Assembly (NCBI GenBank): GCA_038087875.1
Contig: CM075987.1
Coordinates: 27,530,001 to 27,594,000, forward strand
Direction: 5' to 3'
From: Malacoraja senta
Taxonomy: Eukaryota
Length of the DNA stretch: 64,000 nucleotides
Positions 4,161-56,349 of this stretch are shown in pieces. The position numbers and the translations under genes were made by a program. Each line of letters opens with the position of its first letter. The first letter of the stretch is position 1. The notes beneath the pieces are model-generated. The model saw nothing but the letters and a program-made list of their open reading frames with translations, was not told the origin of the DNA and ran no database searches.

Positions 4161-4629
4161 TGTTTTCGTGTGCTGGGCTGAATGGCCTAATTCAGCTCCT
4201 ATAACTTGTGAGCAGGCCTTTTGACCCAACTTGCCCACGCCAACCAAGATGCACCATGTACACCAGTCCAGCCCGCCTGCATTTGGCCCAAATCCCTCTA
4301 AACCATTTATAGTCTGATGGTACCCGCCTAAAAGTTGCCAAGAAGCACAATCCGTGGTTATCAGAGGTAAACGACCAGCATTTTGCTGAACAAACATAGA
4401 AACACAGAAAAATAATAAGTGCAGGAGTAGGCCATTCGGCCCTTCGAGCAACACCGCCATTCAATGTGATTATGGCTCATCATCTAAAAATCAGTACCCC
4501 GTTCCTGCCTTCTCCCCATATCCCTTGATTCCTTTAGCCCTAAGAGCTAAATCTAACTCTCTCTTGAAAACAAAGGAGATAAAGGACCAGCAATAGGTGT
4601 TTTTGTGTAAACCAGCAACTGCAGTTTAC

Positions 4630-6661: not shown

Positions 6662-7219
6662 ATGGCAACATCTGCGGATAAAAGCCACAGTACGATGTGG
6701 GCAAGATTTCATAGCGAATCAGCAAGTAGGGTTGTGAAATTATTGAGAAAAAGTAAAAGTATGGATACACTACTGCAATCCACCAACTTGATACTAAAAG
6801 ATATTCCAGATTATGATACAGTTGAAACTTTACTCCCTTCATCTCTANNNNNNNNNNNNNNNNNNNNNNNNNNNNNNNNNNNNNNNNNNNNNNNNNNNNN
6901 NNNNNNNNNNNNNNNNNNNNNNNNNNNNNNNNNNNNNNNNNNNNNNNNNNNNNNNNNNNNNNNNNNNNNNNNNNNNNNNNNNNNNNNNNNNNNNNNNNNN
7001 NNNNNNNNNNNNNNNNNNNNNNNNNNNNNNNNNNNNNNNNNNNNNNNCTACCAATGGTGCCACTTACAAAATGGGAGGTTCTGCTCCATCAGCACGGAGA
7101 AGACCATTTTTTGGAATCAAGAAGGAAATTGTCAACTAGCAGTAGCTGTCCATCGCTTGTGTCCAGGCTGGAAACATCTGTCTGTGAAGTACATAGTGTC
7201 GTTCAATCTCGTTCTGAAG
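6662..7219 (+). CDS. Gene A first coding exon (interrupted by 200-N gap)
   Basis: Acceptor cttgaacag at 6649, ATG 6662. Reads ...LLPSSL before the gap and [57 protein letters not shown] after it. Donor G|gttaga, phase 1. Confidence 0.7.
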
Positions 7220-10200
7220 GTTAGATGAAGATTTAGCCTTCATTGTAGTAAGAAATTACCCCACCTGTTAGTAACAATTAGGCACAAGCTCGTGGGACAA
7301 AATGGTTTCTTGCGTTACACAGGATTATGTCCATTATAGATTGGAGCTTGATAATTGTTATTTTCACCCTATTCGTGTGTGTTCTTTGCCTGACAATACG
7401 CCAGTCCTCTCGAGCAATTGATCTGACTTAACCTTTATGCACTCATTAATGCAGATAATTCTGTGTTGATTCAAAATAATTACATTGAAATAAATAAAAA
7501 CATGGAAACAAGTCTATAGATATCTGAATTGGCATGACACTGGTGCAGATTAACCTATTGCTTGTATTTCACAGAACTTCCAAGTGTTACCAATCAACCT
7601 GAAGCTGTTTCATGTGAGGAAACAAATCAGTAAGTTGAAACTTTAATTCTGGGACATGTGTACGGTGTCATTATCAGATGGAAAAAATGCTATGTTATAA
7701 TTTCATTAATCATTGGGACTAAAGACAGATTTCTATCTGGACACGATAAATATGTGGCCTTTATTTTATTTTCTCTGTGCATAATTGTATCACTTTCACA
7801 CCGTTGCAGATTTGGTGCTAAAATGGATGACAATTTGATCCTCAATATATAAGAATTCAGTATTAATATTGACTTGACCAAGGGGGACCCGTTGGGCCTT
7901 TGGCCGCGTGCACACACACACACACACTAACCCCCCCCCCTTCATATATTAATATTATTCATCCGCTCCTTTTACCCCAACCCCCGTCCTATCCACTCAC
8001 GCATAACCCCCAACTGCACAGGCACGGGTGGAGAGGGAGAGGGAGGGGGATAGAGATTGAGGGGTGGGGAGGGTGCCCGGCGTCACAGGGGAGGGCTGGT
8101 TCCCGAACCCCATAGGTCCCAATATTCACCACTCCCTAGGGAGGGGAGGGGCAGAGAGGAAGGGGGGCAGAGAAGGAGGGCCTCCTCCTCCCCCCCCCAC
8201 TCCTCCTTTGCCCCCCCCCCCTCTATCTCTTTCTCTGCCCCGGGGAGGGGGTAGAGGCACCAACTACCCAGGTCGTAAAGCAGAAGCCTCCCCACCAGGC
8301 GCCGGGCCCGAGCTAGGCTGCGGCGTGGACCAGAGCGAGGCCCAGAGCGATTTGAGGACGGTGAAAAGCAGCGGAGGGCCGGTCGATCGTGTCTTCCGAG
8401 AGAGGAAGGCCACCCACCAGCGTGACAGACGACCGGGCGGGGGAGACGGAGAGGAGGTCATCCCCTGTGATGGCCACCACGGCCACTTTTCCACTGCGCT
8501 TGTCCGCGCTGCGATAATGACTGCCGCCGCCATGTTGTAGAACATGAAATAGCCCAGCGAAGCCCGCTGCACGACTGAGCACGTGTTTAGCAGCTTCAAT
8601 CCAGAGCCTGGGGGGGTGGCTGGGTCACGTAACTCGCAGCTCATGGAAAACAGTGCCCCTGCACGTTGCCGCGAGGAGCAGAGGCATTGTGACATCATCC
8701 AGCTCGCTTCAGCTCATTAACTTCAAAAAAGATCTCAGATTGGTGAACAATTTTAGTAAAAAACTCAGGAAATAATGAATCACATTTTCAGATGAGGGGA
8801 TTTTTGAAATCATGAGGTAAATCGCTACCGGAATATGTAAAAATTTCACCATTAGCGCATCGGGTTTTCAAGAAGATGTGATTCACAAGCAAACATACAA
8901 ACGATCAGATCAGAGAAGAGTTTATGTGCAAATGCACCATGAAATGACATGGTGTTTACATTATTAAGAAAGGGTCATTAAGCCTAGAACGTTAGATCCC
9001 TTCATTTAGCGTTTTTTTCTTTCAAGTGTTTGCAAGGGTATTATTAGCCTTTGCTCATTCAATTGCAAATGATACAGATTGGGGAATGACTCTAATGAGG
9101 AGTGCAACAGGTTCCTAGAGGGCATAATAAACTTGAAGAATTGGCAACAATTAGTCAGCGGATAAGATTCTTCATTTTGGACATGGAGACAATGCAAATG
9201 GTTGCAAATAATATCTTTAAGGATGATACAAGAAATAAGAGTATAAATATCAGGAAAGAATGAACAAACTGGATCTCTTTTGAGAAAAGTTTATGAAGTA
9301 AATTCAAACTCTAAAATTGAGAGGAGAAGATGCAGGGAGTGGTTTGTTTTAGATGGGTAGAGAAAACAGAAAGAAAAAAAACTAGTTGATAAAAGATGTA
9401 CGTTGTGACTAATAGAGGCCATTCACCACATTAACTCCATACTAGCCTCTAGACTGATGCAATCAGTCCTATTCTTCCATTCTATCTTCATAGTCCATGT
9501 TTATTTCAACTGCCAACCTAATTTCCAGTGGAAATTACTGAATATCTGCATAAACCTGCCTCAAAGGCATGTTTCACTTGTCAGAGCGGCCTGTTATTCA
9601 AGAATGATATGTTATTCACATTCCACATATCAGAGTACTCTTATTCAGGAGTTAGTATTAAATATTTTTGTTAACATTGCAAATTAAGAAAGACAGGAAC
9701 CAGTATTGCTTGTTATTTGTATTTCTACGATCTTAAAAGGTCAGCTTGTCATACTTTGTTAACAAAAGTTATCTGTCTCCAGGTTAGCTATAAACCTGGA
9801 TGCCTTTACTATGGAATCAGTACAATGTACAGATGATGACAGTAAAATGCCAGATCAGAATGACGAGTTTTTCTCTTGGGCATTGGAGAGGTAAAGTTGT
9901 CTTCATGTCTGTGGCTTTCTCACTGTTAAGAAAACGTTCATGTAGAATGCCGTTGACTATAATGACCGAGGAACTGTGCACCACACACCAGATAAAAAAA
10001 CCTGTTGTTCGCATCCCTCCCTATAATATCTTGGCCGAAACTTTAATTCTGTTTTCCCTAATCCTTGTTTCATCAACAGTCTCTTTTGTCTTTTTTTCAT
10101 TTTTAATGTGTGTTAAAAGTCTGTGTAAATGTTCTCCGGTTTGTTTTATTTGGGGGGAGGGGGTCTGGGAGACTTTTTTTCAGTTTCTTACCTTGCCAGA

Positions 10201-13200
10201 GATGCAATTATTTTCCGGGTCGCATGTCCGGCTGATCTGCGGCATACCATCTATGGAGCTGGAGACCTCCTCGGACTGACTTTGGGCCCCACCGCGGGGC
10301 GTGGACTTAACATCGGCTCCGATCCCTTGCCTGGGATCGCTCCAACTGCCTGCTGACTTTACATCGGGAACTCGCAGTCTCCGGAGAGGCTGAGTCGGAA
10401 GCTCCAACGACGCAGAGGCTCGACCAGCCCCGACGCGGGGTCCGATCGCCGGCGCGGAGGAACTGACATCCCCCCCGATGCAAGAGCTGATCGCCCCGAT
10501 GCGAAGGGCCCAAACGCTGCCGGCTACGGGAGTCAAGATCGTCCCGTCAACAAAGGGCTCAAGGCCCCCGACCGCGGGAGAGCAAAGAAGGGAAGAGATT
10601 TGAACTTTTTTTTGCCTTCCATCATCACAGTGAGGAATGTTTATGTTAAAATGTATTTTTGTGTGTTCCGTTTGTTTTTATTGTATGACTGACTTGGCAA
10701 ATGAAATTCCTCGTATGTTGCCAAACATACTTGGCCAATAAAGTATTATTGTGATTGTAATGGCACAGCAATTCGCTAACTTTTTGCAACCAGAAATCAG
10801 AATCTTGTTTGTCTACAAACATTTTGCCAAACTTTCTTTGTTTTCAGATCAAACATCACCAGTTTCATTTATGTTTTTGCTTCTCTTCTCAACTTATTGT
10901 TTTTATCCTGGTTCTTTTTTGAAGAATTTATTTGACATGAGTTATGCAAGCTATTTTGTTTATTTTATTAAATTCTCTAACTCATCATCCTGTGAGCCCT
11001 GGCTTTCAATCCTTTATCTCTCACGGTATGTAGCTAGACACTGCTTGAAACACCCGTTTCTTGAAGATGTCCCATTTAAATTCTTGTTGCTTTTTGTCCA
11101 TTTTACCTCCGTGGGTCCTGTCTTGTCCAATTGAAATTCGGTCTTTCCCGGTTTAAAAATATACTTTAATTAGATTTAATTAAATTACTAATCTAAAGCT
11201 TATGAAGCGTTGTTTACGGTTTCTGGTTCTGGTTGACTATTGCGCAAACACCTCAAAGACGGTGTGTTGTCCCACTACGTCTTTGCCACTTCATTACCAA
11301 GCAGCAGTTCCAAAATGCCTATTTCCTAGATAGACAAAGAACATATATTGGTCAAGAATCACAAATGTGATAATTTAAAAAGTCTCTGTTAGTCCCTTAT
11401 ATGTAGAATCTAATATAACAACTGCAGTCTTGTGCTTTACTGTTCTGCTGTCTGCCGTCCCTTGTTTTATAGTGAACTGCACTCCTTCAACGTGTTGCTA
11501 TTCTTCCACTATCCTCATGGTCCTTCAAGTTTATTTCAACTGCCAGTCTAATTTCCAGTGGAAATTACTGGCTTTCTTCCCCTCCCCCCCCCCCCCCCCC
11601 TCCGCCCACAATCAGTTTGCAGACGGGTCCAGGCCCAAAATGCCACCTAGATACCAGAGATACTGCTTGACCCTCTGAGTTACTTCTGCACTTTGTGTCC
11701 TGAGCATTTCTCACCAATAATTAAAGAAAATCTCTATTCCCTTTTAAAAATCAAGTTTCTACATCATTACGATGTCATTTTAATTAATACCAGGACTTTG
11801 GTTCGCATGTACCACTGTCTTCTCTCTTTTCTTGATTAATAAAATTCCAAAATATCTCTTTTCCTTCAGTGTACTCAATTCTCCCGTTCACCAAATTCTG
11901 GATGGTACTCTGTAGGAACAGTAAAATCCTCTTTGCCTTTGATGTTAAGAGTTGAGTAAAAGTTCCAAAAGTAAATGCAACACACCAGATGGATTTGTAT
12001 TCATTCAGCTGAGTTTATCAGTTTAGTTTATTCACATGCACTGAGGTACAATGAAAAGCTTTTTGTTGCGTGCTATCCACTCAGCGGAAAGACAATACAG
12101 TGTTGCTACTGTAGCTGTACTGAAGGAAAAAGTGTTGCTACATCATTGGCTGAGCAGTGGCAATAGAGAAATAGGCTATCTATATATATATATATATATA
12201 TACACATACACACACACACAACCATACTGTATGAAAAATAATTGAGATTTACATATAATGAACATAGTTCTATTTCTAGAGCTGAAAAGGCAAATATTAA
12301 AGATCGAGGTTTTGAAGAATTTGTGGTGGAAGAAAAGGAAGGATTGATTTTGGAAAATGACTACCTTAGCCCAGCGATGGCTGTTGGTAAACTGGTAAGA
12401 CTTTTTTTTTAATCTCTTCTCCCATCTGACCCCACAGTTTTTCCCTTTCACTTTACCTAAATGGGCTGTGTTAACCCCTATTCTGTGCCATACCCCAACT
12501 TTCACCAGAAACAAACGTGCTGGGTATATTCCTCGATTTACCAATGCATGCGGGCCAATCTTGGTTAAATAAGGACATGACAGGAAGGGCACCAGATGTA
12601 CCTAAAATGAGGCACAAACGTGCCAACGTTACAGCACAGGACTGCATGCATGATAACAGCAAAATAACACGCTATGTAGAGCTATGTGATACCACAACAA
12701 GTAATGACTATTTCCAGCAAGAAATAACTTAACTATGTACTCTTTACTTTCATTCACTTTACGTTTTGAAGAATCCCACAACTTTGACATCCCGGAAGGC
12801 ACCATTGATCAGAAACTTATTAACCACATGAATAGTTACACGTTAACAATGTCAAGATATTAGCAGCTCCAGAGTTGGTTACTAACTGATACTGTAAGAA
12901 CTCTTTCTTTCTTAGTTGTCATTGCACCCTACTTTGTGCATTTGTTGTACAAGCTCATAAACTATATTTGCATTTTGCATTTCTTCTGCTGCTTGCCTAA
13001 TTTGCTCATTTTGTAGAATTTCCAAGAGGCAAGAAAGCATCTCAAGAACTAACCATGACCACTTATTTTTCATAACGCATAATTTAATGAGAGGTTTTGA
13101 TGGAAAATTTACCAGTAACTGAACTATGAATGAAATGTGATATAATTATATAACCTTTATGTCATCTGGGGTTTGGAGACAAATGTTAGCATGACATTTT

Positions 13201-16200
13201 TATTATCTTAAAGTTTTTTATATGCATGTTATTATATTTCAGTTTAGTTTATTGTCACAGTGAAAAGACTGAGTGATTCTTTTGTATTATTCAGGTGACT
13301 CAAAGAACAAATGCTGGGCCCGCAGTCATGGAGGAGACTCCAGTAAGTGCTTGCATAACCTGCAACTTTGTTCAGTGTCTGATCAAATGTTTTAAAAAAA
13401 CACCCTGAGCACTTTGGAGTTTAAACTGGGTAGAATTCACCCTTGGAATTTGTTTTTCTTTTAACCTAAGCAAAGAATTTCAGGAAATTTCACATTTCAC
13501 CGAAATTTCATATTGAAACTAGGAAAATTTGTTTCAATATATTCTGAAATTGAAGATGTATGTTCTCATTTCGGAAATCTAAGTCAGTTACAATCAAAGA
13601 ATTAATACAATCTGAAATGATTTTTTTCATAAAAAAGATTATCATCCAGATAAAAATTAAATTAATCATATAAAGGTACTTTGTTGTATAATGTGCAAAT
13701 TAATCTAAATGGATAGATGTGCAAATGAATGATAATAGACAATAGGTACAGGAGTAGGCCATTCGGCCCTTCGAGCCAGCACCGCCATTCAATGTGATCA
13801 TGGCTGATCATCCCCAATCAGTACCCCGTTCCTGCCTTCTCCCCATATCCCCTATCTTTAAGAGCCCTATCTAGCTCTCTTGAAAGTATCCAGAGAACCG
13901 ACCTCCACCGCCCTCTGAGGCAGAGAATTCCACAGACTCACAATTCTGTGAGAAAGTGTTTCCTCGTCTCCGTTCTAAATGCCTTACCCCTTATTCTTAA
14001 ACTTTGGCCCCTGGTTCTGGACTCTCCCAACAGCAGGAAACATGTTTCCTGCTTCTAGCGCGTCAAAACCATTAACAATCTTATATGTTTCAATAAGATA
14101 GCCTCTCATCCTTCTAAACTCCAGAGTGTACAAGCCCAGCCGCTCCATTCTCTCAGCATATGACAGTCCCGCCATCCTGGGAATTAACCTTGTAAACCTA
14201 CGCTGCACTCCCTCAATAGCAAGAATGTCCTTCCTCAAATTAGGGGACCAAAACTGCACACAATACTCCAGGTGTGGTCTCACTAGGGCCCTGTACAACT
14301 GCAGAAGGACCTCTTTGCTCCTATACTCGACTCCTCTTGTTATAAAGGCCAACATGCCATTTGCTTTCTTCACTGCCTGCTGTACCTGCATGCTTACTTT
14401 CATAGACTGATGAACAAGGACCCCCAGATCCCATTGTACTTCCCCTTTTCCCAACGACGCCATTTAGATAGTAATCTGCCTTCCTGTTTTTGATACCAAA
14501 GTGGATAACCTCACATTTAACCACACTAAACGTCATCTGCCATGCATCTGCCTACTCCCCCAACCTGTCCAAGTCACCCTGCATTCTCTAGCATCCTCCT
14601 CACAGTTCACACTGCCACCCAGCTTTGTGTCATCTGCAAATTTGCTAATGTTACTTTGAATCCCTTCATCCAAATCATTGATGTATATTGTAAATAGCTG
14701 CGGTCCCAGCACCGAGCCTTGCAGTACCCCACTAGTCACTACCTGTCATTCTGAAAGGGACCCGTTAATCCCTACTCTTTGTTTCCTGTCTGCCAACCAA
14801 TTTTCTATCCATGTCAGCACTCTACCCCCAATACCATGTGCCTTAATATTGCCCACTAATCTCCCATGTGGGACCTTATATGCTTTCTGAAAGTCCAGGT
14901 ACACTACATCCACTGGCTCTCCCTTGTCCATTTTCCTAGTTACATCCTCACAAAATTCCAGAAGATCAGTCAAGCATGATTTCCCCTTCGTAAATCCATG
15001 CTGACTCGGACCGATCCTGTTACTGCTATCCAAATGTGCGGCTATTTCATCTTTTATAATTGACTCCAGCATCTGCCCCACCACCGATGTCAGGCTAAAT
15101 GGTCTATAATTCCCTGTTTTCTCTCTCCCGCCTTTCTTAAAAAGTGGGATAACATTAGCTACCCTCCAATCCACAGGAACTGATCCTGTCTATAGAACAT
15201 TGGAAAATTATGATGAGAGAAAGGCCATCAGACCTGTTGCTAATCACATAACCTGCAACTTGCTCAATTAAAAACGGAGTAATTTCTGGTTTACTCAACT
15301 TATTTTCAGAAAATATTTTCAAATGGGAATGTGCTTTTTATACAAATATTTCATTTACAGACAGGAATGAATGACTTCCATTCAGACTATTTTGCTACGA
15401 TGAAGGAGGTTGGTCATGATTTATTTTACAGATTGTTATGACTGAATTCTACAAATTGTTTTAAGTATTATTTACAGTTTGTCACTGTTAAAATCCAATG
15501 ATATGCTTCTCGGGATTTAAGGCCTGACATTTAGAAAGCTTGAGCAAGAACATGTGAAACTGAAGCAGCATGCTACCTGTTCTGCCTTTCAATGAGATGA
15601 TGGCTGATCTTTTATTTCGTAATCCATTTTCTATATGATCTCCATAATATCTTGTTCCCTTTGATAGCTAAGAATCTTTTGATCTCTTTAAATATGATCA
15701 TCTTCCAATGTTGACTAGAAAAGTCCAAAATAAACCGATTCATTGTAGGAGAGAGGAGGCAATTTTCAACCAGTGCCTAATTGGTAATTTGGTCGATGGC
15801 AGAGTTTCAAGAATAGAAATCTTTTTGTTTCATCCACATCAATCATCTTCCCAGCCATTGTACAAGTTATTCAATTTCGATTCCATTGATTTCCTCAATG
15901 GAATCTGGTAAATGGCTCCCCTTATTGTCAAGATACTCTTTAAAGGCAGTTTCTGGAGCGCTTTTTCTGCTCTTTTCTGTTCTGCAGTATATGTAAAACT
16001 AAAGTGGGTGGTATCGTAGATAGTGAAGATGGTTATCAAAAATTACAGCAGGATCTTGATCAGTTAGGCAAGTGAGCTGTGCAATGGTTAATGGAATTTA
16101 ATGCAGATAAGTGCAAGGTGCGATCTTATAGCTATGTATAATATCACGAGAGGAGTAAATGGGGTGATTCCACACTTTTAACCAGAGTAAGGCAATCAAT

Positions 16201-19200
16201 AACCAGAGGCCATGGGTTTAAAGAGAGAGGGCTAAGATTTAATGGGAATCTGAGGGGCAACATTTTCCGCACAGTGGGTGGTGGGTATGTGGAATGAGCT
16301 GCTAGAGGAGGTAGTTGAGGCATGTACGATGACTACATTTATGAGTTGGACAGGTGAGACTCGTATAGATGGAGCATCTTGGTTGGCAAGGGTGTTGGGC
16401 TGACGGAACTGTTTCCTTGCTGTATAAATCTATGCAGGTGCATGGTTCCTTGAAGGTGGAGTCGCACGTAGATAAGGTGGTCAAAAAGGCTTTTGCACAT
16501 TGGCCTTCATCAGTCGAAGAGTATTAAGTATAGAAGTTGGGAGGTCATGTTGCAGTTGTATAAGACGTTGGTGAGACCGCATTTAAAGTATTGTGTTCAG
16601 TTCTGGGCACCATGTTATAGGAAAGATATTGTCAAGCTTGAAAGGGTTCAGAGAAGATTTACGAGGATGTTGCCAGGACTAGAGAGTCTGAGCTATAGGC
16701 AGACGTTGAGTAGGCTGGGACTCTATCCCTTGGAGTGCAGGAGGATGAGGGGTGATCCTATAGAGGTGTATAAGATCATGAGAAGAATAGATCGGGTAGA
16801 TGCACAGAATCTCTTGCCCAGAGTGGGGGAATCGGGGACCAGCGGACACAGACTCGAGGTGAAGGGGAAAAGATTTAATAGAAATCTGAGGATTAACTTT
16901 GGGTGGTGGGTGTATGGAACAAGCTGCCATAGGAGGTAGTTGGGGCTGGGACTATCCCAATGTTAGACAGGTACATGGATAGGACAAGTTTGGAGGGATA
17001 TGGACCAAACGCAGGCAGGTGGGACTAGTGTAGCTGGAACATGTTGGCTGGTGTGGGCAAGTTGGTCCGAAGGGCCTGTTTCTACACTATGACTCTAAAT
17101 GTTTTTACCGCCAAATTATTTTCTGCCCTTTCAAATTATTACTGTTTTCTGAAAGTTAAATAAAGAATTCAGCTGACTGCACAAAGACTAATTCCTTCAT
17201 ATTTTGTTCTTGGTATAACTTCAAATCTGGTCTGGTCATATATCCATTAAATAAATAGATTCTGAATGATGAGCTGCTGCTATCTCTTTTTAACTGAATC
17301 TGTGCAACAATTAATGGGCAGAGTGCAGGAAAACGTGTCCCAAAATCTAGTATGTATTATTACTTCATTTTGAACCAGTTGTTAGATCCGTCTTGAATGC
17401 TGCCATATAAAGTCTTTTTTAATTTATTATTCTAAAAAAGTCAATTAGTGGAATAGAACAAAAGTTAGCAGCTTTTGCTGTTGCCCTGCTTCCGGATACA
17501 TAACAAAATTTGTCAACATGAACACTTCAAGCTTGCGGTATATTTTACTTTAATTTAGAATTATTTTGTGCTTTACAGCCTGGATATAAAGAGATGGTGC
17601 CTGGAGTTAATACAAAGTGTGATAATGTTGAGGTAAATGCCAGATAAAATACTTTATAGATTGTTAGCTGCTTTTCATCTAAAAAAAAACCTCATCCTTG
17701 CTAAAAATCACGACTCTTCTGTTCGTTTAACAACCTGTCCACTAGTTTGCTTTTTTCATTTTAAATTCATATGAAATATTAAGATAATGGAAAGTAGTTA
17801 ATTAGTTTCATGACTGGATTAGCAAACTGTTGTAGATTAATGTTTTATAAATGTAAAGATTCAAGCTAATTGAACATAATATTCATCACATCAGATACTT
17901 TGAGATTAGCGTCTGAATTTAGTTATTCTAAGCTCATTGCTGTGCTTCATGGGAGCTGATTATAGCGACAATGGATTCCAAGTTAAGAGCAGATCTGCTG
18001 ATCCGTATGACTTTATCCGTCCAGCATGAAGATCAAATGTTTCTTTGCGTTAATATTAAGTATATCAGACCAAAACATGTTTTTCAGATGGATCAAGCGT
18101 TCCAAAAGATGGAACCAGCTGCAGAACCTGAACAACTTGCACAGGTAAATACGATGCAAAGATAAAAAGCTTTTGTATCAGTTTTTATTCATTCTGGATT
18201 TGAATGTTTGATTTTCTTTTAAATGTATGTACTCATGCAGCAGATTACAATTTAGGGAAACACTACAATCTTCCACAGAAGGCAAGATGCAGCTTGTTTT
18301 AAATTAAAACAATATTTGGGATAATTCCCTTCACCTCAAGTTATTCCAGGATTGTAACCAAGTGAATTGGAGTAAAGAAAATCTCATGTTTTTTTATGTG
18401 TACATTTGTGGAGATTGCAGGACCTTGACAAAGATCTTTGTATTTTCTCTAGTCACAGGCAAAGTCCCAAAGGACTGAAGAATTGTCAATGTTGTTCCTT
18501 TGTTTAAGTAGAGATAATCCAGGAAAGTATAGATCGGTGAGCCTCATAATCAGTGGTAGGGAAGCTATTGGAGATAGCACTGCCTTGCACCTTGACATCC
18601 TTTGTATTATTCTGACAAACAGGTGGATAATGAGATGTAGATTGACATGCAATTCCAACAGCCATAGTGTATTTGGACGGGGAATGCGCATTGACATCAG
18701 TTGACTTATCTTTCCAGTTTTCTTCATTGAACCATACTCAACCAGCTTCATGCTGTCAGGATCACCTCTGAAGAGTTACTGCTGGATTTGCTAGATGGGT
18801 AATGTTTCCTGAGATTCTGTAACAACAGAGAAAGCAAAGAACATTTGTATTCTTGATTCAATTAATTGACCAGCATACATGCAGTTAGATATGGATAGAA
18901 CATTCATAGGGAAAAAAGGTACAGTTATGATCCAGCCTTACTCACCTGGTTTATATCGAGGGTTGTGGCCTTTGTTACATTATCGTGTGTTAGTAGGAGG
19001 AGGACCTTCCTGCAGTTTAAGTGGAAGTGCCAGTTTCTGTTTGTTGCTTCAGGTACCTGTTGTGGGCAACTTTAACTCGGAAAATAAAGGGAAATTGGTG
19101 TCTGTGTATGTTTGATCGAGAATTGTGTGTGTTACTGAGAAGGCATAGGATAGTGGAGATTATTGGAGAGTAGCTGCAGTAGGTATCTGTGTAGTTGCGT

Positions 19201-22200
19201 TTAAAGTTGGCATTAATTAAAGAGAGCTCAAGGTGTCAAAGCACTAACCTGGCACATCTTGTTAGGTTCTGGATGTGTTTACAGCACTTCCCCAAGGTTT
19301 GGAGGCCCTGCTGAAGGCTATCACTGATCAGCTTCCGCCAATTGTATCTCTGCTGTGGAGACCCCTCTAAAGTTTAGTTTAGTTTATTGTCATGTGTACC
19401 AAGGTACAGTGGAAAGCTTTTTTGTTGCGTGCTAACCAGTCAGCAAAAAGACAATACATGATTACAATCGATCCATTTACAGTGTACACATACATGATAA
19501 GGGAATGACATTTAAGCTGCTGATAAAGAGAACATAAATCCTGACTTCACTTTTCCGGCCATAATGTTGAGCTCTGAATTTGGGAAGAGTGGGTGCACTC
19601 CCTCTTTTCCATTAGTTTCTCCCACTACTTGGGAATTAGTTTCATAAGGATTGTAATGATTACCAAACCCAACATGCAGCAACGTGAATTAATTGTGTCA
19701 AAGTTACAAACTTTACAGTTTAGCATCAGTCTGATTAGTGGACTGTAGTGAATTTTTAAAAATTGCCCAAAGCTTGACCTGTGAACAGAAATGTAAAATG
19801 TTTTAAAGAATAAAAGATTTCAACAAGTGAAGTTCCATTTTAAAGAAAAATTAACTCTTAAAAAGAGGAGTTACATTACTTCTCTATTTCAGATTGGAAG
19901 CATGGAGTCATTTGAATATACTTTCACTAAATCTAAAAGAAAGGTAACTATCCGTGCTTGCTGTCATTTAAGTACTGCTCATTTATATTTTCATTCTTTT
20001 TGTCTTTCAGAAGACTTTTCACCTTTTTAATTTATTTGTTCATGGAATGTGGAGCCAGCTTTATGTTCCTTCCCTCCTTGCCCCTGAACTGGGATGGAGT
20101 TAAGAGTTGTGTAGAAAGGAACTGCAGATGCTGGTTTATACTGAAGGTAGACGCAAAGTGCTGGAGTATACTGAAGTTGGAGTTACTCCAGCACTCTGTG
20201 TCTATCTGGAGTTAAGTATTAGTTGGTTGTCAAATTGGTTGTCTCAATTCATAAGGATTGTAATGATTACCAAATACTGAATAAGTATGGCAGATTTTCT
20301 CTTCTGAAAGATGTCGGAAACCAGACTGGCTTTAACAAGTCTGAAGAAGGGTTTCGGCCCGAAACGTTGCCTATTTCCTTCGCTCCATAGATGCTGCTGC
20401 ACCCGCTGAGTTTCTCCAGCATTTTTGTGTACCTCTGGCTTTAACAATATTGTGCTGAGGCTAGCCGTTTTTTAAAGATTCCAGACTTATTTAATTACTT
20501 GAATTTAAATTCTACACATGGCATAATAGGATTCAAGCTCAAACCCTGGATTGGTACAGTAGAAGTTATAGTCCTATCTTACAGTTTTGGCTACTTATTG
20601 ATTCTGATCTCCTGTACTATTCCTGTGGAATTTGCACATTCTTCCTGTGAGCTGTGGGTTTCCCCTGGGTGTTCCCATTTCTCCCACCACCTAAAGTGTG
20701 CTGATTACTACGTTAATTGGCCACTATAAATCGCACTCAGTGTAGTTAGATGGCAGGAAAATCGAGGAAGTGTTAATAAACGTGTGTGATAATAGATTAA
20801 CAGGGCTCTCTGCATGGCAGCAAAGGAGCATTGAGTCTGTGGCAAGAGAAATATGTCAATCAATGTTCCAGATCCCTCACTTCTGGTCCAATAACGAGCT
20901 TTGCTCTATTATTCTCGTGTTCACCTGTTTACTTCAAATTAAACAATATTACACTAAACAAAATTTGGATCCCTGAAATATGTTTTAAAATTAACTGAAT
21001 GGTTGTTTTCAATGTGGATAAGGGTATTAGCACAATACATCATATGAGTGCCAGGAAATTAGCTGAGCTCTATTTATCCTAATGCCTATAAATTGTAATA
21101 TGCCTTAAAGCTTGAACCAGAAGTTGTGTGTAGTACTTGCTCACTCCCACACAAATCTACCCCTGGCCTCTAACTATTTTGGGTTTAAATTGCAAACACC
21201 ATTAGTACATAATGTTTTTTAAAAATTATAGCAAATTTGTAACTCGTTTTTTGTTTTGTTTTAATATAGTCGTATTATGCAGAGGAAGAAATGAAACTTG
21301 TGGTGAAGGATAAGGCTGAGGTAACAATACAAATATTTTAAGCATGATAAAAACAGATAATCAGGAGCCTCTAATATATTTGCAATCAAGATAATCAATA
21401 AATTAATTGTGTAAATCTCTAAATTTGCAATTTTGCTATATTTTTCATTATTTTAATTATTTCTCCATAATATGTTGTCAGAAGAAAAACTTGCCATTGC
21501 TTATCTAGAATGGCTAATGTAATTTAATGTCTTCTAGATTTACATAATTCTTATAAATTTCACACCATTTTTTTACTTATCTTTTCTGACACGCGTCTTG
21601 ATTTTAAACTTTATCTGATGTGGGTTATAGTTCCATTAAGCAAACATGAACACTTTTATTTTAATGCAGATCGAGTGCAAGAACCAACAAACTAAATTTT
21701 CTCGAGAGCACTATCAGGTAAGCTTTACAGGACAGTATCTTGCGACAGTGTGACTCGACCACGGAGGACGCTGGAGCTCAGAAATCACCAAAGATGTCCC
21801 TTAGTTGAAAGGCTGAAGCTGTTGCTTTGAGAAGTTAATGAATGACATGGTTTTTAAAGGAAATTAGAGATGAGTGAAATCAAGATAGGACAGCCATTAT
21901 CTAGAATGTGGTTGCATCGAACAGTAGTTGGAATCAAATTCAATTTTTTATTTGGAGTGTCCTCAGACTGCTTTGTGTCTAGACTAGAACTATCATTATA
22001 CATATATATGCATTGAAGCAATCTACATCATGTACCCCACTGTTGCAGTTGTTTCCACACTGGTTTCTTTTTAAAAAACATTTGTCAATCCATTCTCCAT
22101 AAGCCTTCAAAGTTAAGGACAGCGAAGTATATTCACAATGAACATGATGTGGGGGAAATAAGAGTACAAATTAATGAAATTCTGAATTTTATTTAATTAG

Positions 22201-25200
22201 GGATTGGATGAGGACATTAAATATTCTGAGGAGCTGTTTGATGAAATCAATGATGATGATGATGACGATGACAGTACTAACCTGTAAGTACCATAATGTA
22301 ATTTAAGGTATAAATAAATGAGCAAAGTTCGAAAGCAATGTTGACTGCACACCACGCAAGAACATATCGTGCTACTGAGTGATACTAGGACAATGCTGTC
22401 CATCGGAGCGTTTGAAGAACTGTGGCCAACCATCTACATAACAGCATGATTGTTAGGGCAAAATGGTGAGAAGAACAAATGTATATTTGAGATAGAAACA
22501 GAGAAAAATAGGTGCAGGAGTAGGCCATTCGGCCCTTTGAGCTAGCACCACCATTCAATATGATCATGGCTGATCATCTAAAATCATTACCCCATTCCTG
22601 CTTTTTCCCTATATCCCTTGATTCCTTTAGCCCTAAGAGCTAAATCTAACTCTCTTGAAAACATCCAGTGAATTGGCCTCCACTGCCTTCTGCAGCAGAG
22701 AATTCAACAGATTCACAACCCTCTAGTAGATTATAAGGTAACAAATGCAGTGTTTAATATAGGAGGGAGAGAGAAAAGAGGGAACTGTACCTGTTAGCCT
22801 AAGTAATTGGTAAGAAAAATGCAGGGATTTATATTGAAAGGTGAAATAACAACATTGCAAGAAGAAGAATGTGAAATTATTATTTTTGTACCTCAGGAAA
22901 TTCGTGTTAGACTAATCTTTTGGAGTCTTTGAATAAGTGACTCATAGAATATATAAGGAAGATGCAGTGGGTGCGTTATATTTTTGGAAGGTTTTCTATG
23001 TGGTCCCCGTACAGGAGGTTGATGAACAAGGTTGGCGTATATGGAATTGGAGAGAGTACGCTAATGTCGATTGAGAAGTTGGTAATCAGATGGAAATCAA
23101 TAAGTGAGAATATCTTCTCGGTGTAACAGGGCACTGAAGAGTTTGTTGCTTGAGACCCAGTTGTTAGCAATCTATATCAATAATATTGTTGGGGGGAAAT
23201 GTCATAGTTCCATGTTTGCTGACAATACCAAACAAGGTAGGATTATGTGATGTAAGGGTATAGATTGGGCAGAAGGTGAACCAGCTGAAGGAGAGTGGGA
23301 ACCTGCCTGATGAATTATATATTTTAAAATGAGATCATCCATATAACACAAAAGCAGAGTATTTATTAAACAGCGAGAGATTGGGTCATGTTGATGTTTC
23401 AAGGGACCTGGATCTGCTTGTACATAAATCACTGAAGGCAACATGTAATTAGGAGGGCATATGTCATTTTAGTCTTGATGACAAGAGTGTTTGATTCCAG
23501 AAATAAGGAAGTATTATTACGTTTGGAGAGACCTTATCTGGATTATTGAGGCCTGCTTTGGTCTCCTTACCAAAGATTCAATGGACTAGTTTCAGGGATG
23601 GTAGGTTTGCTGCATGAGGACAGTTTAAATAGACTGGGACTGTACCTTCTAGAGTTTAGAAAAGTGAAAGGAGATCTCATCAGAACCTATAAAAGTCTTG
23701 AAGGGTTTAAAAGGTTGGATGCAGGGAGGATGTTTCACTTGACTGAGGGATATTGGACCTGGGACATAGTTTCAGAATAAGGGATAGGCTGAATAAGATG
23801 AAACATTTCTTCACTCTGAGGGCTGTGAACCTTTGGAATCCTCTGCCCTGGGTACTGCTGTTGCATTCATTCAAAACTGAGATTGAGAGGTTCTTGGACA
23901 TAAGAGCCTCAAGAGATTATGGTGACAATGCAGAAAAATGGTCTGAATGAAGATCTCAACGAAGACAGAGCAGGCTGAAAGGGCCATTTAGCCTTTCCTG
24001 TTCCTATTAGTTAAGTTATTATTGTGCTAATTAAAATAGAATGTCTTTAAATATTAGTTAAATTACCAAACGGCAGCTTCTAGGTTGTTCCATCTTTTGT
24101 ATACAGCCTCTTTCATCTAAATGCATTGGGAATTTTTACATTTAAAGCTTTTGGGGGAGCATCTTGTGAAGTCTGAGGAAAGTCCAGTGTACTGACTGAA
24201 TTTAGTCATGTACTTTTTTTGCACAATTTTGTGTATTTTTAGGGAGACAAGAACAATGTTGTGCCTACCATTCTTATGTTGGAGAAGGAGAAATAAGCAT
24301 GTGAAGGAGCAGAAGGTGAGCTACAGGCAAACATTTGTTTTTGTAAAATTACCTTTATTTCTCATGTTATTTTATTAAGTATTTATTCCTGTTTGAGTAA
24401 GGGTTTGAAATTTCCAGCAAATATATCATTGTGTGCAACAAAGCAATAAATCTCTAGTAGAATCAGTATATGATTATTCAGAAATCCTGATGATTTAGCA
24501 TCTGGTTCATGGAGTACAGGTTTTGCTGCTCACTTTCACTTGGGGGGCTATTTTCCATGCTCTCTTTAAACACGTTGGCTCTTTGATTTCCCCACTACCT
24601 TTCACTCACCAGGGCCCCAGTTTCTGCACCTTTTTGTTTAATTTCCTTGAAATTTACCTGGTTTTGCTCCCCACACTTCCTTGAATTTTTAGACACAAAG
24701 CTGGAGTAACACAGCGGGTCAGACAGCATCTCTGGAGAAAAGGAATTGGTGAAGTTTCGGATCGAGACCCTTATTCAAACTCGGCCAGAACAGTTCCTTT
24801 TCTCCTGAGATGCTGTCAGCGCGCTGAGTTACTCAAGCTTTTATTGTCTATCTTCGGTTTAACCAGCTTCTGGAGTTCCTTCCTACACACTTCCTTGAAA
24901 CTTTATTGGGATACATAGATACATAGAAAATAGGTGCAGGAGTAGGCCATTCGACCCTTCGAGCCTGCACCGCCATTCAATATGATCATGGCTGATCATC
25001 CAACTCAGTATCCCGTACCTGCCTTCTCTCCATACCCCCTGATCCCTTTAGCCACAAGGGCCACATCTAACTCCCTCTTAAATATAGCCAATGAACTGGC
25101 GTCAACTACCCGCTGTGGCAGAGAGTTCCAGAGATTCACCACTCTGTGTGAAAAAGTTTTTCCTCATCTCGGTCCTAAAGGATTTCCCCCTTATCCTTAA

Positions 25201-27820
25201 GCTGTGACCCCTTGTCCTGGACTTCCCCAACATCGGGAACAATCTTCCTGCATCTAGCCTGTCCAACCCCATAAGAATTTTGTACGTTTCTATAAGATCC
25301 CCTCTCAATCTCCTAAATTCTAGCGAGTACAAGCCAAGTCTATCCAGTCTTTCTTCATATGAAAGTCCTGACATCCCAGGAATCAGTCTGGTGAACCTTC
25401 TCTGCACTCCCTCTATGGCTATAATGTCCTTCCTCAGATTTGGAGACCAAAACTGTACGCAATACTCCAGGTGTGGTCTCACCAAGACCCTGTACAACTG
25501 CAGTAGAACCTCCCTGCTCCTATACTCAAATCCTCTTGCTATGAAGGCCAACATACCATTCGCTTTCTTCACTGCCTGCTGCACCTGCATGCCTACTTTC
25601 AATGACTGGTGTACCATGACACCCAGGTCTCGCTGCACCTCCCCATTTCCTAATCGGCCACCATTTAGATAATAGTCTGCCTTCCCGTTTTTGCCACCAA
25701 AGTGGATAACCTCACATTTATCCACATTATACTGCATCTGCCAAACATTTGCCCACTCACCCAGCCTATCCAAGTCACCTTGCAGTCTCCTAGCATCCTC
25801 CTCACAGCTAACACTGCCCCCCAGCTTAGTGTCATCCGCAAACTTGGAGATGTTGCTTTCAATTCCCTCGTCCAGATCATTAATATAAATTGTAAATAGC
25901 TGGGGTCCCAGCACTGAGCCTTGCGGTACCCCACTAGTCACTGCCTGCCATTGTGAAAAGGACCCGTTTACTCCTACTCTTTGCTTCCTGTTTGCCAGCC
26001 AGTTCTTTATCCACATCAATACTGAAGCCCCAATACCGTGTGATTTAAGTTTGTATCCTAATCTCTTATGTGGTACCTTGTCGAAAGCCTTCTGAAAGTC
26101 CAGATACAACACATCCACTGGTTCTCCCCTATCCACTCTACTAGTTACATCCTCGAAAAATTCTATAAGATTCGTCAGACACGATTTACCTTTCGTAAAT
26201 CCATGCTGACTTTGTCCAATGATTTCATCACTTTCCAAATGTGCTGCTATCCCATCTTTAATAACTGACTCTAGCAGTTTCCCCACTACCGATGTTAGAC
26301 TAACTGGTCTGTAATTCCCCGTTTTCTCTCTCCCTCCCTTCTTAAAAAGTGGGGTTACGTTTGCTACCCTCCAATCCTCAGGAACTACTCCAGAATCTAA
26401 AGAATTTTGAAAAATTATCACTAATGCATCCACTATTTCTGGAGCTACTTCCTTAAGTACTCTGGGATGCAGCCTATCTGGCCCTGGTGATTTATCGGCC
26501 TTTAATCCATTCAATTTACCCAACACCACTTCCCGACTAACCTGGATTTCACTCAGTTCCTCCATCTCCTTTGACCCGCGGCCCCCTGCTATTTCCGGCA
26601 GATTATTTATGTCTTCCTTAGTGAAGACGGAACCAAAGTAGTTATTCAATTGGTCCGCCATATCCTTGTTCCCCATGATCAATTCACCTGTTTCTGACTG
26701 CAAGGGACCTACATTTGTTTTAACTAATCTCTTTCTCTTCACATATCTATAAAAACTTTTGCAGTCAGTTTTTATGTTCCATGCCAGTTTCCTTTCATAA
26801 TCTATTTTCCCTTTCCTAATTAAGCCCTTTGTCCTCCTCTGTTGGTCTCCGAATTTCTCCCAGTCCTCTGGTATGCTGCTTTTTCTGGCTAATTTGTACG
26901 CAACATCTTTTGCTTTGATACTATCCCTGATTTCCCTTGTTATCCACGGATGCACTACCTTCCCTGATTTATTCTTTTGCCAAACTGGGATGAACATTTT
27001 TTGTAGTTCATCCATGCAGTCTTTAAATGCCTTCCATTGCATATCCACCGTCAACCCTTTTAGAACTAATTGCCAGTCAATCTTGGCCAATTCACGTCTC
27101 ATATCCTCAAAGTTACCTTTCTTTAAGTTCAGAACCGTTGTTTCTGAATTAACAATGTCACTCTCCATCCTAATGAAGAACTCAACCATATTATGGTCAC
27201 TCTTGCCCAAGGGGGCACGCACAACAAGTCTGCTAACTAACCCTTCCTCATTACTCAATACCCAGTCTAGAATAGCCTGCTCTCTCGTTGGTTCCTCTAC
27301 ATGTTGGTTTAGATAACTATCCCTCATACATTCCAAGAAATCCTCTTCCTCAGCACCCCTGCCAATTTGATTCACCCAATCTATATGTAGATTGAAGTCA
27401 CCCATTATAACTGTTTTGCCTTTGTTGCACGCATTTCTAATTTCCTGTTTGATGCCATCCCCAACTTCACTACTACTGCTAGGTGGCCTGTACACAACAC
27501 CCACCAGCGTTTTCTGCCCCTTAGTGTTTCGTGTTCCTTTTAACCTTACCAGGCTTACTGAAAACATCATTATTCTACTGGGTAACATCTCATAAAAAAA
27601 GGTGAAGTAAAAGCATGTTCAAGTATTAGTAGCCTGGTCCAGAAAATTAATTCGATAGCCCAGAAAATCTGCTAACCGATGCCATCAAAGTCTCAACCTT
27701 GTCAGATTTTCCGAGGTTTACTATATTAGTATGTAACGTGATTAGTAAGATAATATCAGAATTCACCTTTAACAGAACCTTTTTGTTTTTCAACAGGGTC
27801 CCAACTTCTTTGAAAGATAA
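6662..27820 (+). CDS. Gene A: uncharacterised multi-exon protein (~390 aa, acidic, probably disordered)
   Basis: Phase-consistent GT-AG chain: 6662-7219 (spans N gap), 7575-7629, 9783-9890, 12280-12394, 13295-13342, 15361-15408, 17579-17632, 18088-18144, 19893-19943, 21270-21320, 21670-21717, 22201-22283, 24243-24315, 27797-27820 (GPNFFER*). AATAAA at 27958. Starts [38 protein letters not shown]. No homologue recognised. Confidence 0.7.
6848..7047. other. Assembly gap (200 N)
   Basis: Run of N. Confidence 1.
7575..7629 (+). CDS. Gene A exon ([19 protein letters not shown])
   Basis: tttcacag / gtaagt, phase 1 to 2. Confidence 0.7.
7870..8925. mobile_element. Non-autonomous GC-rich element, possibly Helentron/HINE(DINE-1)-like
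   Basis: Begins ttgaccaagggggacccgttgggcc (short hairpin), has low-complexity C/G tracts and a CpG-rich core, and ends with aaatttcacc...agaagat...acaaacatacaaac. No credible ORF. Family assignment is by resemblance only. Confidence 0.35.
9783..9890 (+). CDS. Gene A exon ([36 protein letters not shown])
   Basis: tctccag / gtaaag, phase 2 to 2. Confidence 0.7.
10110..10750. repeat. Dispersed GC-rich repeat (copy of 3700-4160 family)
   Basis: Direct sequence similarity to 3700-4160. Confidence 0.75.
12280..12394 (+). CDS. Gene A exon ([38 protein letters not shown])
   Basis: tttctag / gtaaga, phase 2 to 0; alternative donor after 12386. Confidence 0.7.
13295..13342 (+). CDS. Gene A micro-exon ([16 protein letters not shown])
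   Basis: 48 nt, attcag / gtaagt, phase 0-0. Confidence 0.65.
13733..15210 (-). mobile_element. CR1 LINE, 5'-truncated, frameshifted
   Basis: RT fragments ([49 protein letters not shown]) plus 3' UTR ending in (TCTATTG)n. Confidence 0.95.
15361..15408 (+). CDS. Gene A micro-exon ([16 protein letters not shown])
   Basis: 48 nt, tttacag / gttggt, phase 0-0. Confidence 0.6.
15990..17098 (+). mobile_element. CR1 LINE 3' fragments
   Basis: ORF 16493-16939 ...[33 protein letters not shown]. Confidence 0.85.
17579..17632 (+). CDS. Gene A micro-exon ([18 protein letters not shown])
   Basis: 54 nt, ctttacag / gtaaat, phase 0-0. Confidence 0.65.
18088..18144 (+). CDS. Gene A micro-exon ([19 protein letters not shown])
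   Basis: 57 nt, ttttcag / gtaaat, phase 0-0. Confidence 0.65.
19893..19943 (+). CDS. Gene A micro-exon ([17 protein letters not shown])
   Basis: 51 nt, tatttcag / gtaact, phase 0-0. Confidence 0.65.
20339..20370 (+). ncRNA. Putative minimal hammerhead ribozyme motif (Penelope-associated)
   Basis: GT-CTGAAGA-A-GGGT(TTCG)GCCC-GAAACGTT-GC. Confidence 0.55.
21270..21320 (+). CDS. Gene A micro-exon ([17 protein letters not shown])
   Basis: 51 nt, T-rich acceptor / gtaaca, phase 0-0. Confidence 0.65.
21670..21717 (+). CDS. Gene A micro-exon ([16 protein letters not shown])
   Basis: 48 nt, aatgcag / gtaagc, phase 0-0. Confidence 0.65.
22201..22283 (+). CDS. Gene A exon ([28 protein letters not shown])
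   Basis: aattag / gtaagt, phase 0 to 2; poly-Asp. Confidence 0.7.
22490..24010. mobile_element. CR1 3' end (minus, 22490-22725) and old decayed CR1 (plus, ~22780-24010)
   Basis: Recognisable 3' UTR and degenerate RT C-terminal motifs ([19 protein letters not shown]). Confidence 0.7.
24243..24315 (+). CDS. Gene A exon ([24 protein letters not shown])
   Basis: ttttttag / gtgagc, phase 2 to 0. Confidence 0.7.
24911..27530 (-). mobile_element. Young CR1 LINE, 5'-truncated, near-intact ORF2 (C-terminal APE plus RT)
   Basis: ORF 25102-27588 (828 aa): [27 protein letters not shown]. 3' tail (CTATGTAT)n. Lies in the last intron of gene A. Confidence 0.97.
27797..27820 (+). CDS. Gene A terminal coding exon (GPNFFER*)
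   Basis: Strong acceptor ttttgtttttcaacag, TAA stop, AATAAA at 27958. Confidence 0.6.
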   Translation, partial: GPNFFER

Positions 27821-27957
27821 CTTTGTGCCTGTAGAGAATTGTTAAAATGGAGCGATTGACCTGTTTTATAATAAGTGGAGTTCCACAAAAAAAAGTTGTA
27901 AATTGTTTTGCTTGTTGATACGTTTAGCTGCTGTGTTATAACTTTTAAGCTAACTTT

Positions 27958-27963
27958 AATAAA
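27958..27963 (+). terminator. Polyadenylation signal of gene A
   Basis: AATAAA about 140 nt after the stop, followed by T-rich sequence. Confidence 0.5.
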
Positions 27964-30590: not shown

Positions 30591-30594
30591 TCCC

Positions 30595-30830: not shown

Positions 30831-30973
30831 AAGTGGGTTTTCTATTTCCTTTAACCCTCGATGACAAGCAATTGCCTGCTGTAGAACCAGAAGAGAGGAA
30901 GAACGTCTGTGGGAGAGTCCAGGACCAGAGGTCACAGCCTCACAATTAAAGGACGTTCCTTTAGGAAGGAGAT

Positions 30974-56345: not shown

Positions 56346-56349
56346 TAGT

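What the first reader, a model, noticed from the sequence alone, without database searches (positions are those of the whole stretch)
6662..27820. Unrecognised gene built on a run of seven symmetric 48-57 nt micro-exons
Seen: exons of 48, 48, 54, 57, 51, 51 and 48 nt (13295-21717). All are phase 0-0 with canonical splice sites, open frames and mutually dissimilar peptides. They are followed by a poly-Asp exon and a Cys/basic tail ([14 protein letters not shown]). The N-terminus has RKSKSMDTL and [12 protein letters not shown], which look like phosphosites or 14-3-3 motifs. The supplied ORF track does not show this gene as a unit. Inference: old serial exon duplication produced a modular disordered protein whose cassettes could be skipped freely without frameshift. 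I recognise no homologue, so it may be lineage-restricted or fast evolving.
Basis: partly seen in the sequence, partly recalled or inferred. Interest (0 to 1): 0.7.

Follow-up and report, generated by a model that had tools for sequence, protein, structure and literature searches.

The report
Cartilaginous-fish gene with skippable short exons
This is a real but unstudied gene, found so far only in sharks, rays and chimaeras; it encodes a floppy acidic protein whose middle is built from short exons that are left out in different versions, while both ends stay fixed.

Summary
All seven 48-57 nt exons are at the stated places, with AG/GT ends, phase 0-0 and open frames. They belong to a 14-coding-exon gene for a 389-aa acidic protein with no confident fold (AlphaFold pLDDT 38).

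The gene is not unseen: public databases hold it as an 'uncharacterized' model in 12 cartilaginous fishes (Leucoraja LOC129712142 to Callorhinchus LOC103183074). No homologue outside Chondrichthyes, no significant Pfam or PDB match and no paper naming six of its LOC ids was found.

Each of the eight symmetric exons is missing from at least one deposited form, two of them between isoforms of one species; no deposited form skips an asymmetric exon and rejoins the next in frame. Serial duplication is not supported: the exons show no convincing mutual similarity. The one RNA run laid gave trace depth and no listed exon joints (inconclusive).

Best inferred function (0.45): a membrane-tethered disordered phospho-adaptor, with conserved N-terminal serine motifs, a C-terminal Cys-x4-Cys plus basic anchor, and a spacer tuned by splicing. 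Runs of symmetric exons in disordered proteins are a known kind of architecture.

The parts
4600..5330 (.). CpG island, likely promoter and 5' non-coding exon(s); candidate donors after 5058 and 5234; 33-bp tandem repeat (4666-4818) with five GTCACGTG E-boxes; TGACGTCA at 4858
   Evidence: GC 0.67, CpG o/e 1.11; repeat; sequence. Assignment to this gene is inferred, not shown
6650..7219 (+). E1: first coding exon (ATG 6662), interrupted by an artefactual 200-N gap (6848-7047); holds the [10 protein letters not shown] and SxSCPxL motifs; ends in phase 1
7575..7629 (+). E2, 55 nt, phase 1-2
   Evidence: present in 15 of 15 forms that have an N-terminus
9783..9890 (+).
   Evidence: absent from 5 of 15 forms with an N-terminus; differs between isoforms of Scyliorhinus and of Narcine
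12280..12394 (+). E4, 115 nt, phase 2-0; conserved [13 protein letters not shown] block
   Evidence: present in 16 of 16 forms that reach it
13295..13342 (+). E5, 48 nt, phase 0-0
   Evidence: absent from the 3 Scyliorhinus forms
15361..15408 (+). E6, 48 nt, phase 0-0, weakest donor
   Evidence: absent from Rhincodon, Chiloscyllium, Scyliorhinus, Hemitrygon forms and P0019
17579..17632 (+). E7, 54 nt, phase 0-0
   Evidence: absent from Rhincodon, Chiloscyllium, Narcine, Mobula, Hemitrygon, Pristis forms
18088..18144 (+). E8, 57 nt, phase 0-0
   Evidence: absent from Narcine and Hemitrygon forms
19893..19943 (+). E9, 51 nt, phase 0-0; the best conserved cassette (77% mean pairwise identity)
   Evidence: absent from the Pristiophorus form
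21270..21320 (+). E10, 51 nt, phase 0-0
   Evidence: absent from Narcine and Hemitrygon forms and P0019
21670..21717 (+). E11, 48 nt, phase 0-0
   Evidence: exactly this exon differs between Scyliorhinus isoforms X1 and X2
22201..22283 (+). E12, 83 nt, phase 0-2; acidic poly-Asp exon (14 of 28 residues D/E)
24243..24315 (+). E13, 73 nt, phase 2-0; E-x-x-x-[LIM][LM] motif, then C-L-P-F-L-C and a basic cluster (putative lipid anchor)
   Evidence: present in 12 of 13 proteins scanned
27797..27963 (+). E14: last 7 codons, stop at 27818-27820, 3' UTR with AATAAA at 27958

Best explanation
A conserved, single, protein-coding gene of cartilaginous fishes that encodes a 44.6-kDa acidic (pI 4.7, net charge about -29) intrinsically disordered protein of three parts. 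SHOWN: (1) a constitutive N-terminal ~100-aa block with conserved short motifs; (2) a middle of eight frame-preserving exons that are present or absent as whole units among deposited forms; (3) a conserved C-terminal acidic tract followed by C-[LM]-P-F-[LM]-C and three or more basic residues; no 19-residue hydrophobic segment, so no transmembrane helix. INFERRED: the two cysteines are S-acylated and, with the basic cluster, tether the protein to the cytosolic face of a membrane; the adjacent acidic dileucine-type motif may route it to endosomal or post-Golgi membranes. The N-terminal serines are phosphorylated: [10 protein letters not shown] resembles the AMPK/SIK/MARK substrate pattern (Leu at -5 and +4, basic at -4/-3), and SxSCP resembles the TFEB S211-C212 type of site. 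They would then recruit 14-3-3 or another partner. Alternative splicing and lineage-specific loss of cassettes set the length and motif content of the spacer between the anchor and the phospho-module. Phase symmetry is what permits this; whether it arose by duplication cannot be read from today's sequences.
For: Orthologues in 12 named chondrichthyan species. Disorder: pLDDT 38, 311 of 385 residues under 50; Atlas model pTM 0.14; no significant Pfam or PDB hit. Exon matrix over 17 deposited forms (the genomic fragments P0001, P0002, P0020 left out): 8 of 8 symmetric exons are absent from at least one form. Within one species, E11 or E3 alone distinguishes Scyliorhinus isoforms and E3 distinguishes Narcine isoforms. 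P0019, an unnamed 134-aa spliced ORF, lacks E6 and E10. A shark (Heterodontus) and the skates both carry all seven, so the full set is old. Motif conservation in 13 proteins: LRKSKS[ML]DTL 11 of 13, SxSCPxL 12 of 13, Cys/basic anchor 12 of 13, E13 dileucine-type motif 12 of 13; the misses are one N-terminally truncated model, one model with an internal E1 deletion, and one with an unrelated tail. Both anchor cysteines are invariant in 11 of 11 aligned proteins including Callorhinchus. Highest 19-residue hydropathy 0.89. Consensus LXRXXSXXXL and its double role as a 14-3-3 site: PMC6890249, passages. TFEB S211/14-3-3 and Cys212: PMC10626434, passages.
Against: No experiment supports any function; acylation, phosphorylation, 14-3-3 binding and localisation are read from motifs. 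Loose motifs are common by chance: the AMPK-type pattern occurs in 55% and the dileucine pattern in 80% of shuffles of this protein. The Cys/basic and SxSCP patterns were written after seeing the alignment, so their shuffle rates mean nothing. The kinase site has Lys, not Arg, at -3 and lacks the +2 Pro; PMC6890249 reports that a site without +2 Pro needed the -3 Arg for 14-3-3 binding. The isoform evidence is from automatic gene models whose reads I did not see; absences between species may be annotation gaps or exon loss, not regulated skipping. The only confirmed RNA run laid showed depth 0-0.3 in the repeat-free bins and no exon-exon joint among the 15 joints listed (8648 not shown). Three of 17 forms lack the anchor exon E13.
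Confidence: 0.45

Rival explanations
1. A nuclear or cytosolic acidic chaperone-like protein: the poly-Asp tract binds basic clients (histones, protamines, ribosomal proteins), the basic cluster after the cysteines is a nuclear localisation signal, and the cysteines are not acylated.
For: Net charge about -29 and pI 4.7; E12 is half D/E and among the best conserved exons (76%); the basic cluster is kept in 12 of 13 proteins.
Against: The invariant hydrophobic C-x-P-F-x-C directly before the basic cluster is not needed for a localisation signal and fits a lipid anchor better (inference). No similarity to any known chaperone family.
Confidence: 0.2
2. A germline- or testis-restricted structural protein of spermatogenesis, as is common for uncharacterised disordered multi-exon vertebrate genes.
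For: Only trace expression in the one polyA run laid (tissue unknown). Lies beside a C9orf43-like gene, recalled as testis-enriched in mammals. The CpG-island promoter has tandem E-boxes and a CRE.
Against: No tissue data at all. CpG-island promoters with E-boxes are equally typical of broadly expressed genes. Sequence conservation (55-67% skate to shark) is moderate rather than rapid. Not exclusive of the best explanation.
Confidence: 0.2
3. A diverged orthologue of a known bony-vertebrate gene from the human 9q32-34 region, missed because disordered proteins lose detectable similarity.
For: The neighbours are a C9orf43-like gene and an exon recalled as LRSAM1-like, both on human 9q (recalled). 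Identity already falls to 38% at Callorhinchus. The profile used for the unindexed search (A2) did not include Callorhinchus.
Against: HMMER over 1.84 billion representatives gave 6 hits at E 0.001 or better, all members or fragments of this family. The word-indexed searches gave only the same family. The best Atlas feature hit for the Callorhinchus N-terminus (MACIR/C5orf30, 0.77) is under the tool's chance level and Pfam found no family in that protein.
Confidence: 0.2
4. One reading: the seven exons are serial duplicates of one ancestral 0-0 exon.
For: Narrow length range (16-19 codons) and 8 consecutive phase-0 introns (0.76% of 13-intron genes under independence with p=0.4628). One pair, E5/E11, scores z 3.3 as peptides. 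PMC3632108 argues that such runs often arise by internal duplication.
Against: 20 of 21 peptide pairs have z under 2 and 21 of 21 DNA pairs are not significant. Self-BLAST of 7050-24400 finds only four repeat pairs, all intronic. In human, significant similarity is found in only 7.8% of consecutive symmetric exons (PMC3632108), so most such runs show no trace of duplication.
Confidence: 0.25

Closest known systems
Uncharacterized chondrichthyan gene models: Leucoraja erinacea LOC129712142, Rhincodon LOC125486404, Scyliorhinus LOC119955872, Pristis LOC127582189, Mobula LOC134359668, Callorhinchus LOC103183074
   Same: Same gene: 97% identity over exon 1 and all 14 coding exons matched in Leucoraja X1.
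Disordered proteins encoded by successive symmetric (0,0) exons (Schad et al. 2013, PMC3632108; I saw passages and the section with Table 1)
   Same: Same architecture: 9764 of 78,502 human exons lie in runs of three or more 0-0 exons, and such runs are enriched in disorder and alternative splicing.
   Different: Here the run is long (seven) and the exons are uniformly short (16-19 aa against a mean of 43 aa for successive 0-0 exons); no sequence trace of duplication.
Cys/polybasic membrane-anchored disordered signalling proteins such as GAP-43, R7BP, AKAP18 (recalled, no call)
   Same: Disordered, charged chain with a short hydrophobic di-cysteine and basic cluster near one end.
   Different: No sequence similarity found; acylation untested; the anchor here is C-terminal, and skates have no cysteine in the last residues for prenylation.
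MACIR / C5orf30 (PF15435)
   Same: Vertebrate disordered protein that pulls down 14-3-3 (10.1101/841999, passages); nearest Atlas cluster by features for the Callorhinchus N-terminus.
   Different: Score 0.77 with 137 of 256 features shared, below the tool's chance level; Pfam gives no hit on that protein; about 200 aa against 389 aa. Not a homologue on this evidence.

Membership tests
LOC129712142 / LOC103183074 orthogroup | Full-length sequence similarity with collinear exons | tested here: met
   All 14 coding exons align to P0003
Any Pfam family | Hit at or above gathering score | tested here: not met
   0 of 6 proteins (best E 0.09) and none for Callorhinchus
MACIR / C5orf30 | PF15435 UNC119_bdg domain | tested here: not met
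   No PF15435 hit at E up to 1; Atlas score 0.77
Successive symmetric-exon disordered proteins | Three or more consecutive exons of one symmetric phase | tested here: met
   Seven 0-0 exons
Successive symmetric-exon disordered proteins | Encoded region disordered | tested here: met
   pLDDT under 50 for residues 177-323; a shallow alignment of 11 also lowers pLDDT, so this is consistent with, not proof of, disorder
Tandem exon-duplication arrays | Detectable similarity between neighbouring exons | tested here: not met
   1 of 21 peptide pairs nominally significant (non-adjacent), 0 of 21 DNA pairs
Alternatively spliced cassette exons | Skipping and inclusion junction reads in RNA | tested here: inconclusive
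   Isoform models and P0019 show skipping; run X7 gave no listed exon joint
S-acylated peripheral membrane proteins | Conserved Cys next to hydrophobic and basic residues, no transmembrane helix | tested here: met
S-acylated peripheral membrane proteins | Demonstrated acylation and membrane binding | not testable with these tools
   needs experiment
14-3-3 clients | Canonical R-x-x-pS-x-P site | tested here: not met
   Neither N-terminal motif matches; 1 of 13 proteins has a match elsewhere. Non-canonical sites remain possible
SCPP-type secreted acidic proteins with phase-0 exons (features recalled) | N-terminal signal peptide | tested here: not met
   The N-terminus is polar; best 11-residue hydropathy 1.35, at residue 57

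The most novel reading that the evidence does not exclude
A gene family that arose in, or was kept only by, cartilaginous fishes, older than the chimaera-elasmobranch split, encoding a lipid-anchored endolysosomal phospho-adaptor. A bank of eight in-frame cassettes acts as a splice-adjustable ruler between its membrane anchor and a 14-3-3 module, and it sits in a TFEB/MiT feedback loop: five CLEAR-like E-boxes in its CpG island and a TFEB-S211-like SxSCP site in the protein.
Probability: 0.1. Interest if true: 0.65.

Novelty: new member of a known kind. Interest (0 to 1): 0.36.

Why it matters
If the restriction to Chondrichthyes holds, this is an old, conserved, multi-exon gene family with no name, domain or paper found here, and a candidate for lineage-specific cell biology in sharks and rays. 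Its cassette bank is a clean natural test of how frame-preserving short exons are gained, skipped and lost in a disordered protein, since every cassette is missing from some deposited form. It does not point to a new mechanism class: the architecture is common in vertebrates and the function is inferred from motifs only.

Tried and rejected
No whole genome is held for this window, so paralogues, pseudogenes and wider synteny could not be checked. The cluster-member look-up could not be made, so further isoform names and the source of P0019 are unknown. Sequencing-run search: no RNA holder listed, which is no evidence on expression. Laying 4 of the 10 listed runs (X7, X1, X2, X8) on 7050-24400: the tables were swamped by repeats; X7 (a relative, about 6% of the run read) gave depth 0-0.3 in repeat-free bins, mostly with the first mate on the minus strand as a plus-strand transcript would give, but too little to count; X8 is probably DNA. 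Pfam, PDB sequences, ESM Atlas whole protein (no usable feature hit, TM 0.24 at most) and N-terminus: nothing significant. Fold search not run because the model is low-confidence. Exon-duplication tests negative. FFAT motif: 0 of 13; canonical 14-3-3 motif: not at the proposed sites; LIR-like EELFDE[IL] in 9 of 13 but 29% by chance and not at that place in Callorhinchus. A minus-strand ORF upstream (1880-2131) has no significant Pfam hit; the upstream neighbour was not identified. Five coding differences to relative B visible (4 non-synonymous, 1 synonymous) are too few, and from a truncated table, for dN/dS. Paper searches: six LOC ids, 0 papers; C9orf43/LRSAM1/synteny, 1 unrelated listing; chondrichthyan-specific or orphan genes, 15 of 74 listed, none on this gene by title; searches for TFEB-type motif strings found no paper printing them among those listed; palmitoylation search seen as listing only. 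Supplementary tables of shark and skate transcriptome papers were not searched and could list these loci. Earlier scan findings: none.
Full report
OBSERVATION. With E1 (ATG 6662), E2 (7575-7629), E3 (9783-9890), E4 (12280-12394), E12, E13 and E14 the phases chain 1-2-2-0-0-0-0-0-0-0-0-2-0 into one frame of 389 codons, with 13 of 13 introns GT-AG and AATAAA at 27958. The 200-N gap in E1 hides nothing: three database proteins from skates cross it without a missing residue. Contigs of DNA run X1, which may be the window's own source, agree with the window over the 8 listed pieces.

IDENTITY. The first 62 residues found 14 proteins; a 7-sequence profile found 16 of 6386 candidates. All named hits are 'uncharacterized' proteins of 12 cartilaginous fishes; the closest is Leucoraja erinacea LOC129712142 (97% over the query), so the window is from a related skate, and the most distant is Callorhinchus milii LOC103183074 (38%). 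HMMER without a word index over 1.84 billion representatives returned 6 hits, all of this family; that profile lacked Callorhinchus. A search of shorter proteins with the 11-sequence profile added nothing. Pfam, PDB and the ESM Atlas gave no significant match. No paper in the library holds any of six LOC ids. So the gene is already predicted but unnamed and, at this sensitivity, confined to Chondrichthyes. The downstream neighbour carries DUF4647 (C9orf43-like; E 8e-12).

THE CASSETTES. I aligned 17 deposited forms to the exon model (three genomic fragments left out). Each of the seven 0-0 exons, and the 2-2 exon E3, is missing as a unit from at least one form. E1 and E2 are in 15 of 15 forms with an N-terminus (Heterodontus lacks 34 residues inside E1), E4 in 16 of 16 that reach it, E12 in 16 of 17 and E13 in 14 of 17; the exceptions end in unrelated tails instead of skipping and rejoining. 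Within species, Scyliorhinus X2 lacks exactly E11, X3 lacks E3, and Narcine X8/X9 lack E3 relative to X3. P0019, an unnamed spliced ORF, lacks E6 and E10 and ends in repeat-derived sequence. The Leucoraja and Heterodontus forms hold all seven, so the full set predates the shark-ray split. Caveat: these are automatic models, and my own RNA test was inconclusive: run X7 gave depth 0-0.3 in repeat-free bins and no exon joint among the 15 listed of more than 8600.

HOW ODD IS THE RUN. Phase 0 is 46.28% of human introns, and 9764 of 78,502 exons lie in runs of three or more 0-0 exons, which are enriched in disorder (PMC3632108, passages and Table 1 section). Eight consecutive phase-0 introns among 13 arise in 0.76% of simulated genes: uncommon, yet expected many times per genome. 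The uniform short length is the more unusual trait; I had no genome to measure its background. Duplication left no clear trace: 1 of 21 peptide pairs was nominally significant (E5/E11, z 3.3, p 0.003 before correction), 0 of 21 DNA pairs, and no repeat pair in the self-comparison involves an exon.

THE PROTEIN. 44.6 kDa, pI 4.7, no hydrophobic segment long enough for a signal or transmembrane helix. AlphaFold gives mean pLDDT 38 with only low-confidence helices at the ends. Mean pairwise identity is highest in E9 (77%), E12 (76%), E13 (73%), E1 and E10 (70%) and lowest in E3 (51%) and E14 (46%). Conserved to Callorhinchus are LRKSKS[ML]DTL (11 of 13 proteins), SxSCPxL (12 of 13), an E-x-x-x-[LIM][LM] motif and C-[LM]-P-F-[LM]-C with a basic cluster (each 12 of 13). 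[quoted passage not shown] The second recalls TFEB S211-C212 (PMC10626434, passages; the flanking TFEB residues are recalled, not seen). Such loose patterns occur by chance in 55% and 80% of shuffles for the kinase and dileucine patterns; only their conservation makes them credible.

MECHANISM. Most likely (0.45) a cytosolic-face, S-acylated, disordered adaptor: anchor and sorting motif at the C-terminus, phospho-switch at the N-terminus, and a spacer whose length and motif content vary by cassette splicing. The anatomy and cassette behaviour are shown; acylation, phosphorylation, partners and location are inferred. Rivals: nuclear acidic chaperone (0.2), germline structural protein (0.2, compatible with the first), unrecognised orthologue of a bony-vertebrate gene (0.2, a question of identity), and origin by serial duplication (0.25, a question of history). 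The nearest Atlas lead, MACIR, is a disordered 14-3-3 binder (10.1101/841999, passages), but its score is at chance level and it fails the Pfam test.

VERDICT. A real, conserved, uncharacterised chondrichthyan gene with a documented kind of architecture: new member of a known kind. Interest 0.36. Worth a look for shark and skate genomics and for exon evolution, but nothing shown here departs from known mechanisms.

Noticed in passing
window 36274-53866 (+), promoter near 30560-30830: C9orf43-like gene (DUF4647, E 8e-12 on the first coding exon) with its own CpG island (o/e 0.89) and a long acidic last exon (53282-53863) of loosely repeated units.
   Followed up: partly
window 59870-59925 (+), CpG island 56340-56490: Short exon whose translation resembles the N-terminal part of LRSAM1 (recalled; Pfam gave no hit on 23 aa).
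   Followed up: partly
window 4666-4818: 33-bp tandem repeat, 4.6 copies, holding five GTCACGTG E-boxes (5 of the 9 in the window) and GC boxes in the CpG island; the core matches the first 8 of 10 bases of the CLEAR element. It could serve this gene or an unidentified divergent one.
   Followed up: partly
window 6848-7047 and 57800-57999: Two fixed-size 200-N assembly gaps; the first splits a coding exon with nothing missing, which would break automatic annotation of this gene in this assembly.
   Followed up: yes
window about 6788-6790 (codon 43): The window reads Leu where all aligned relatives that cover the site read Trp; a real substitution or a base error near the gap. Not covered by the read lay.
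   Followed up: no
window 12266-12279: A second AG just upstream of the E4 acceptor would add four residues in frame; Narcine isoforms show a matching extension, which suggests a conserved tandem acceptor.
   Followed up: partly
window 13731-15211, 24910-26993, 30960-33060: Copies of a high-copy LINE-like repeat in introns (two are 80% identical over 1.5 kb); repeat bins attract hundreds-fold RNA depth in run X7.
   Followed up: no
window 56764-57799 and 55913-56343: Long G-rich tandem array (43-bp period) ending at a gap, and a 25-bp minisatellite, flanking the third CpG island.
   Followed up: no
window 60900-64000 (-): Apparently an endonuclease and reverse-transcriptase retroelement of a different type in the last gene's intron (read by eye, not tested).
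   Followed up: no
window 570-2130: Unique-looking, repeat-free stretches with possible splice sites upstream of the CpG island; no coding gene identified.
   Followed up: partly
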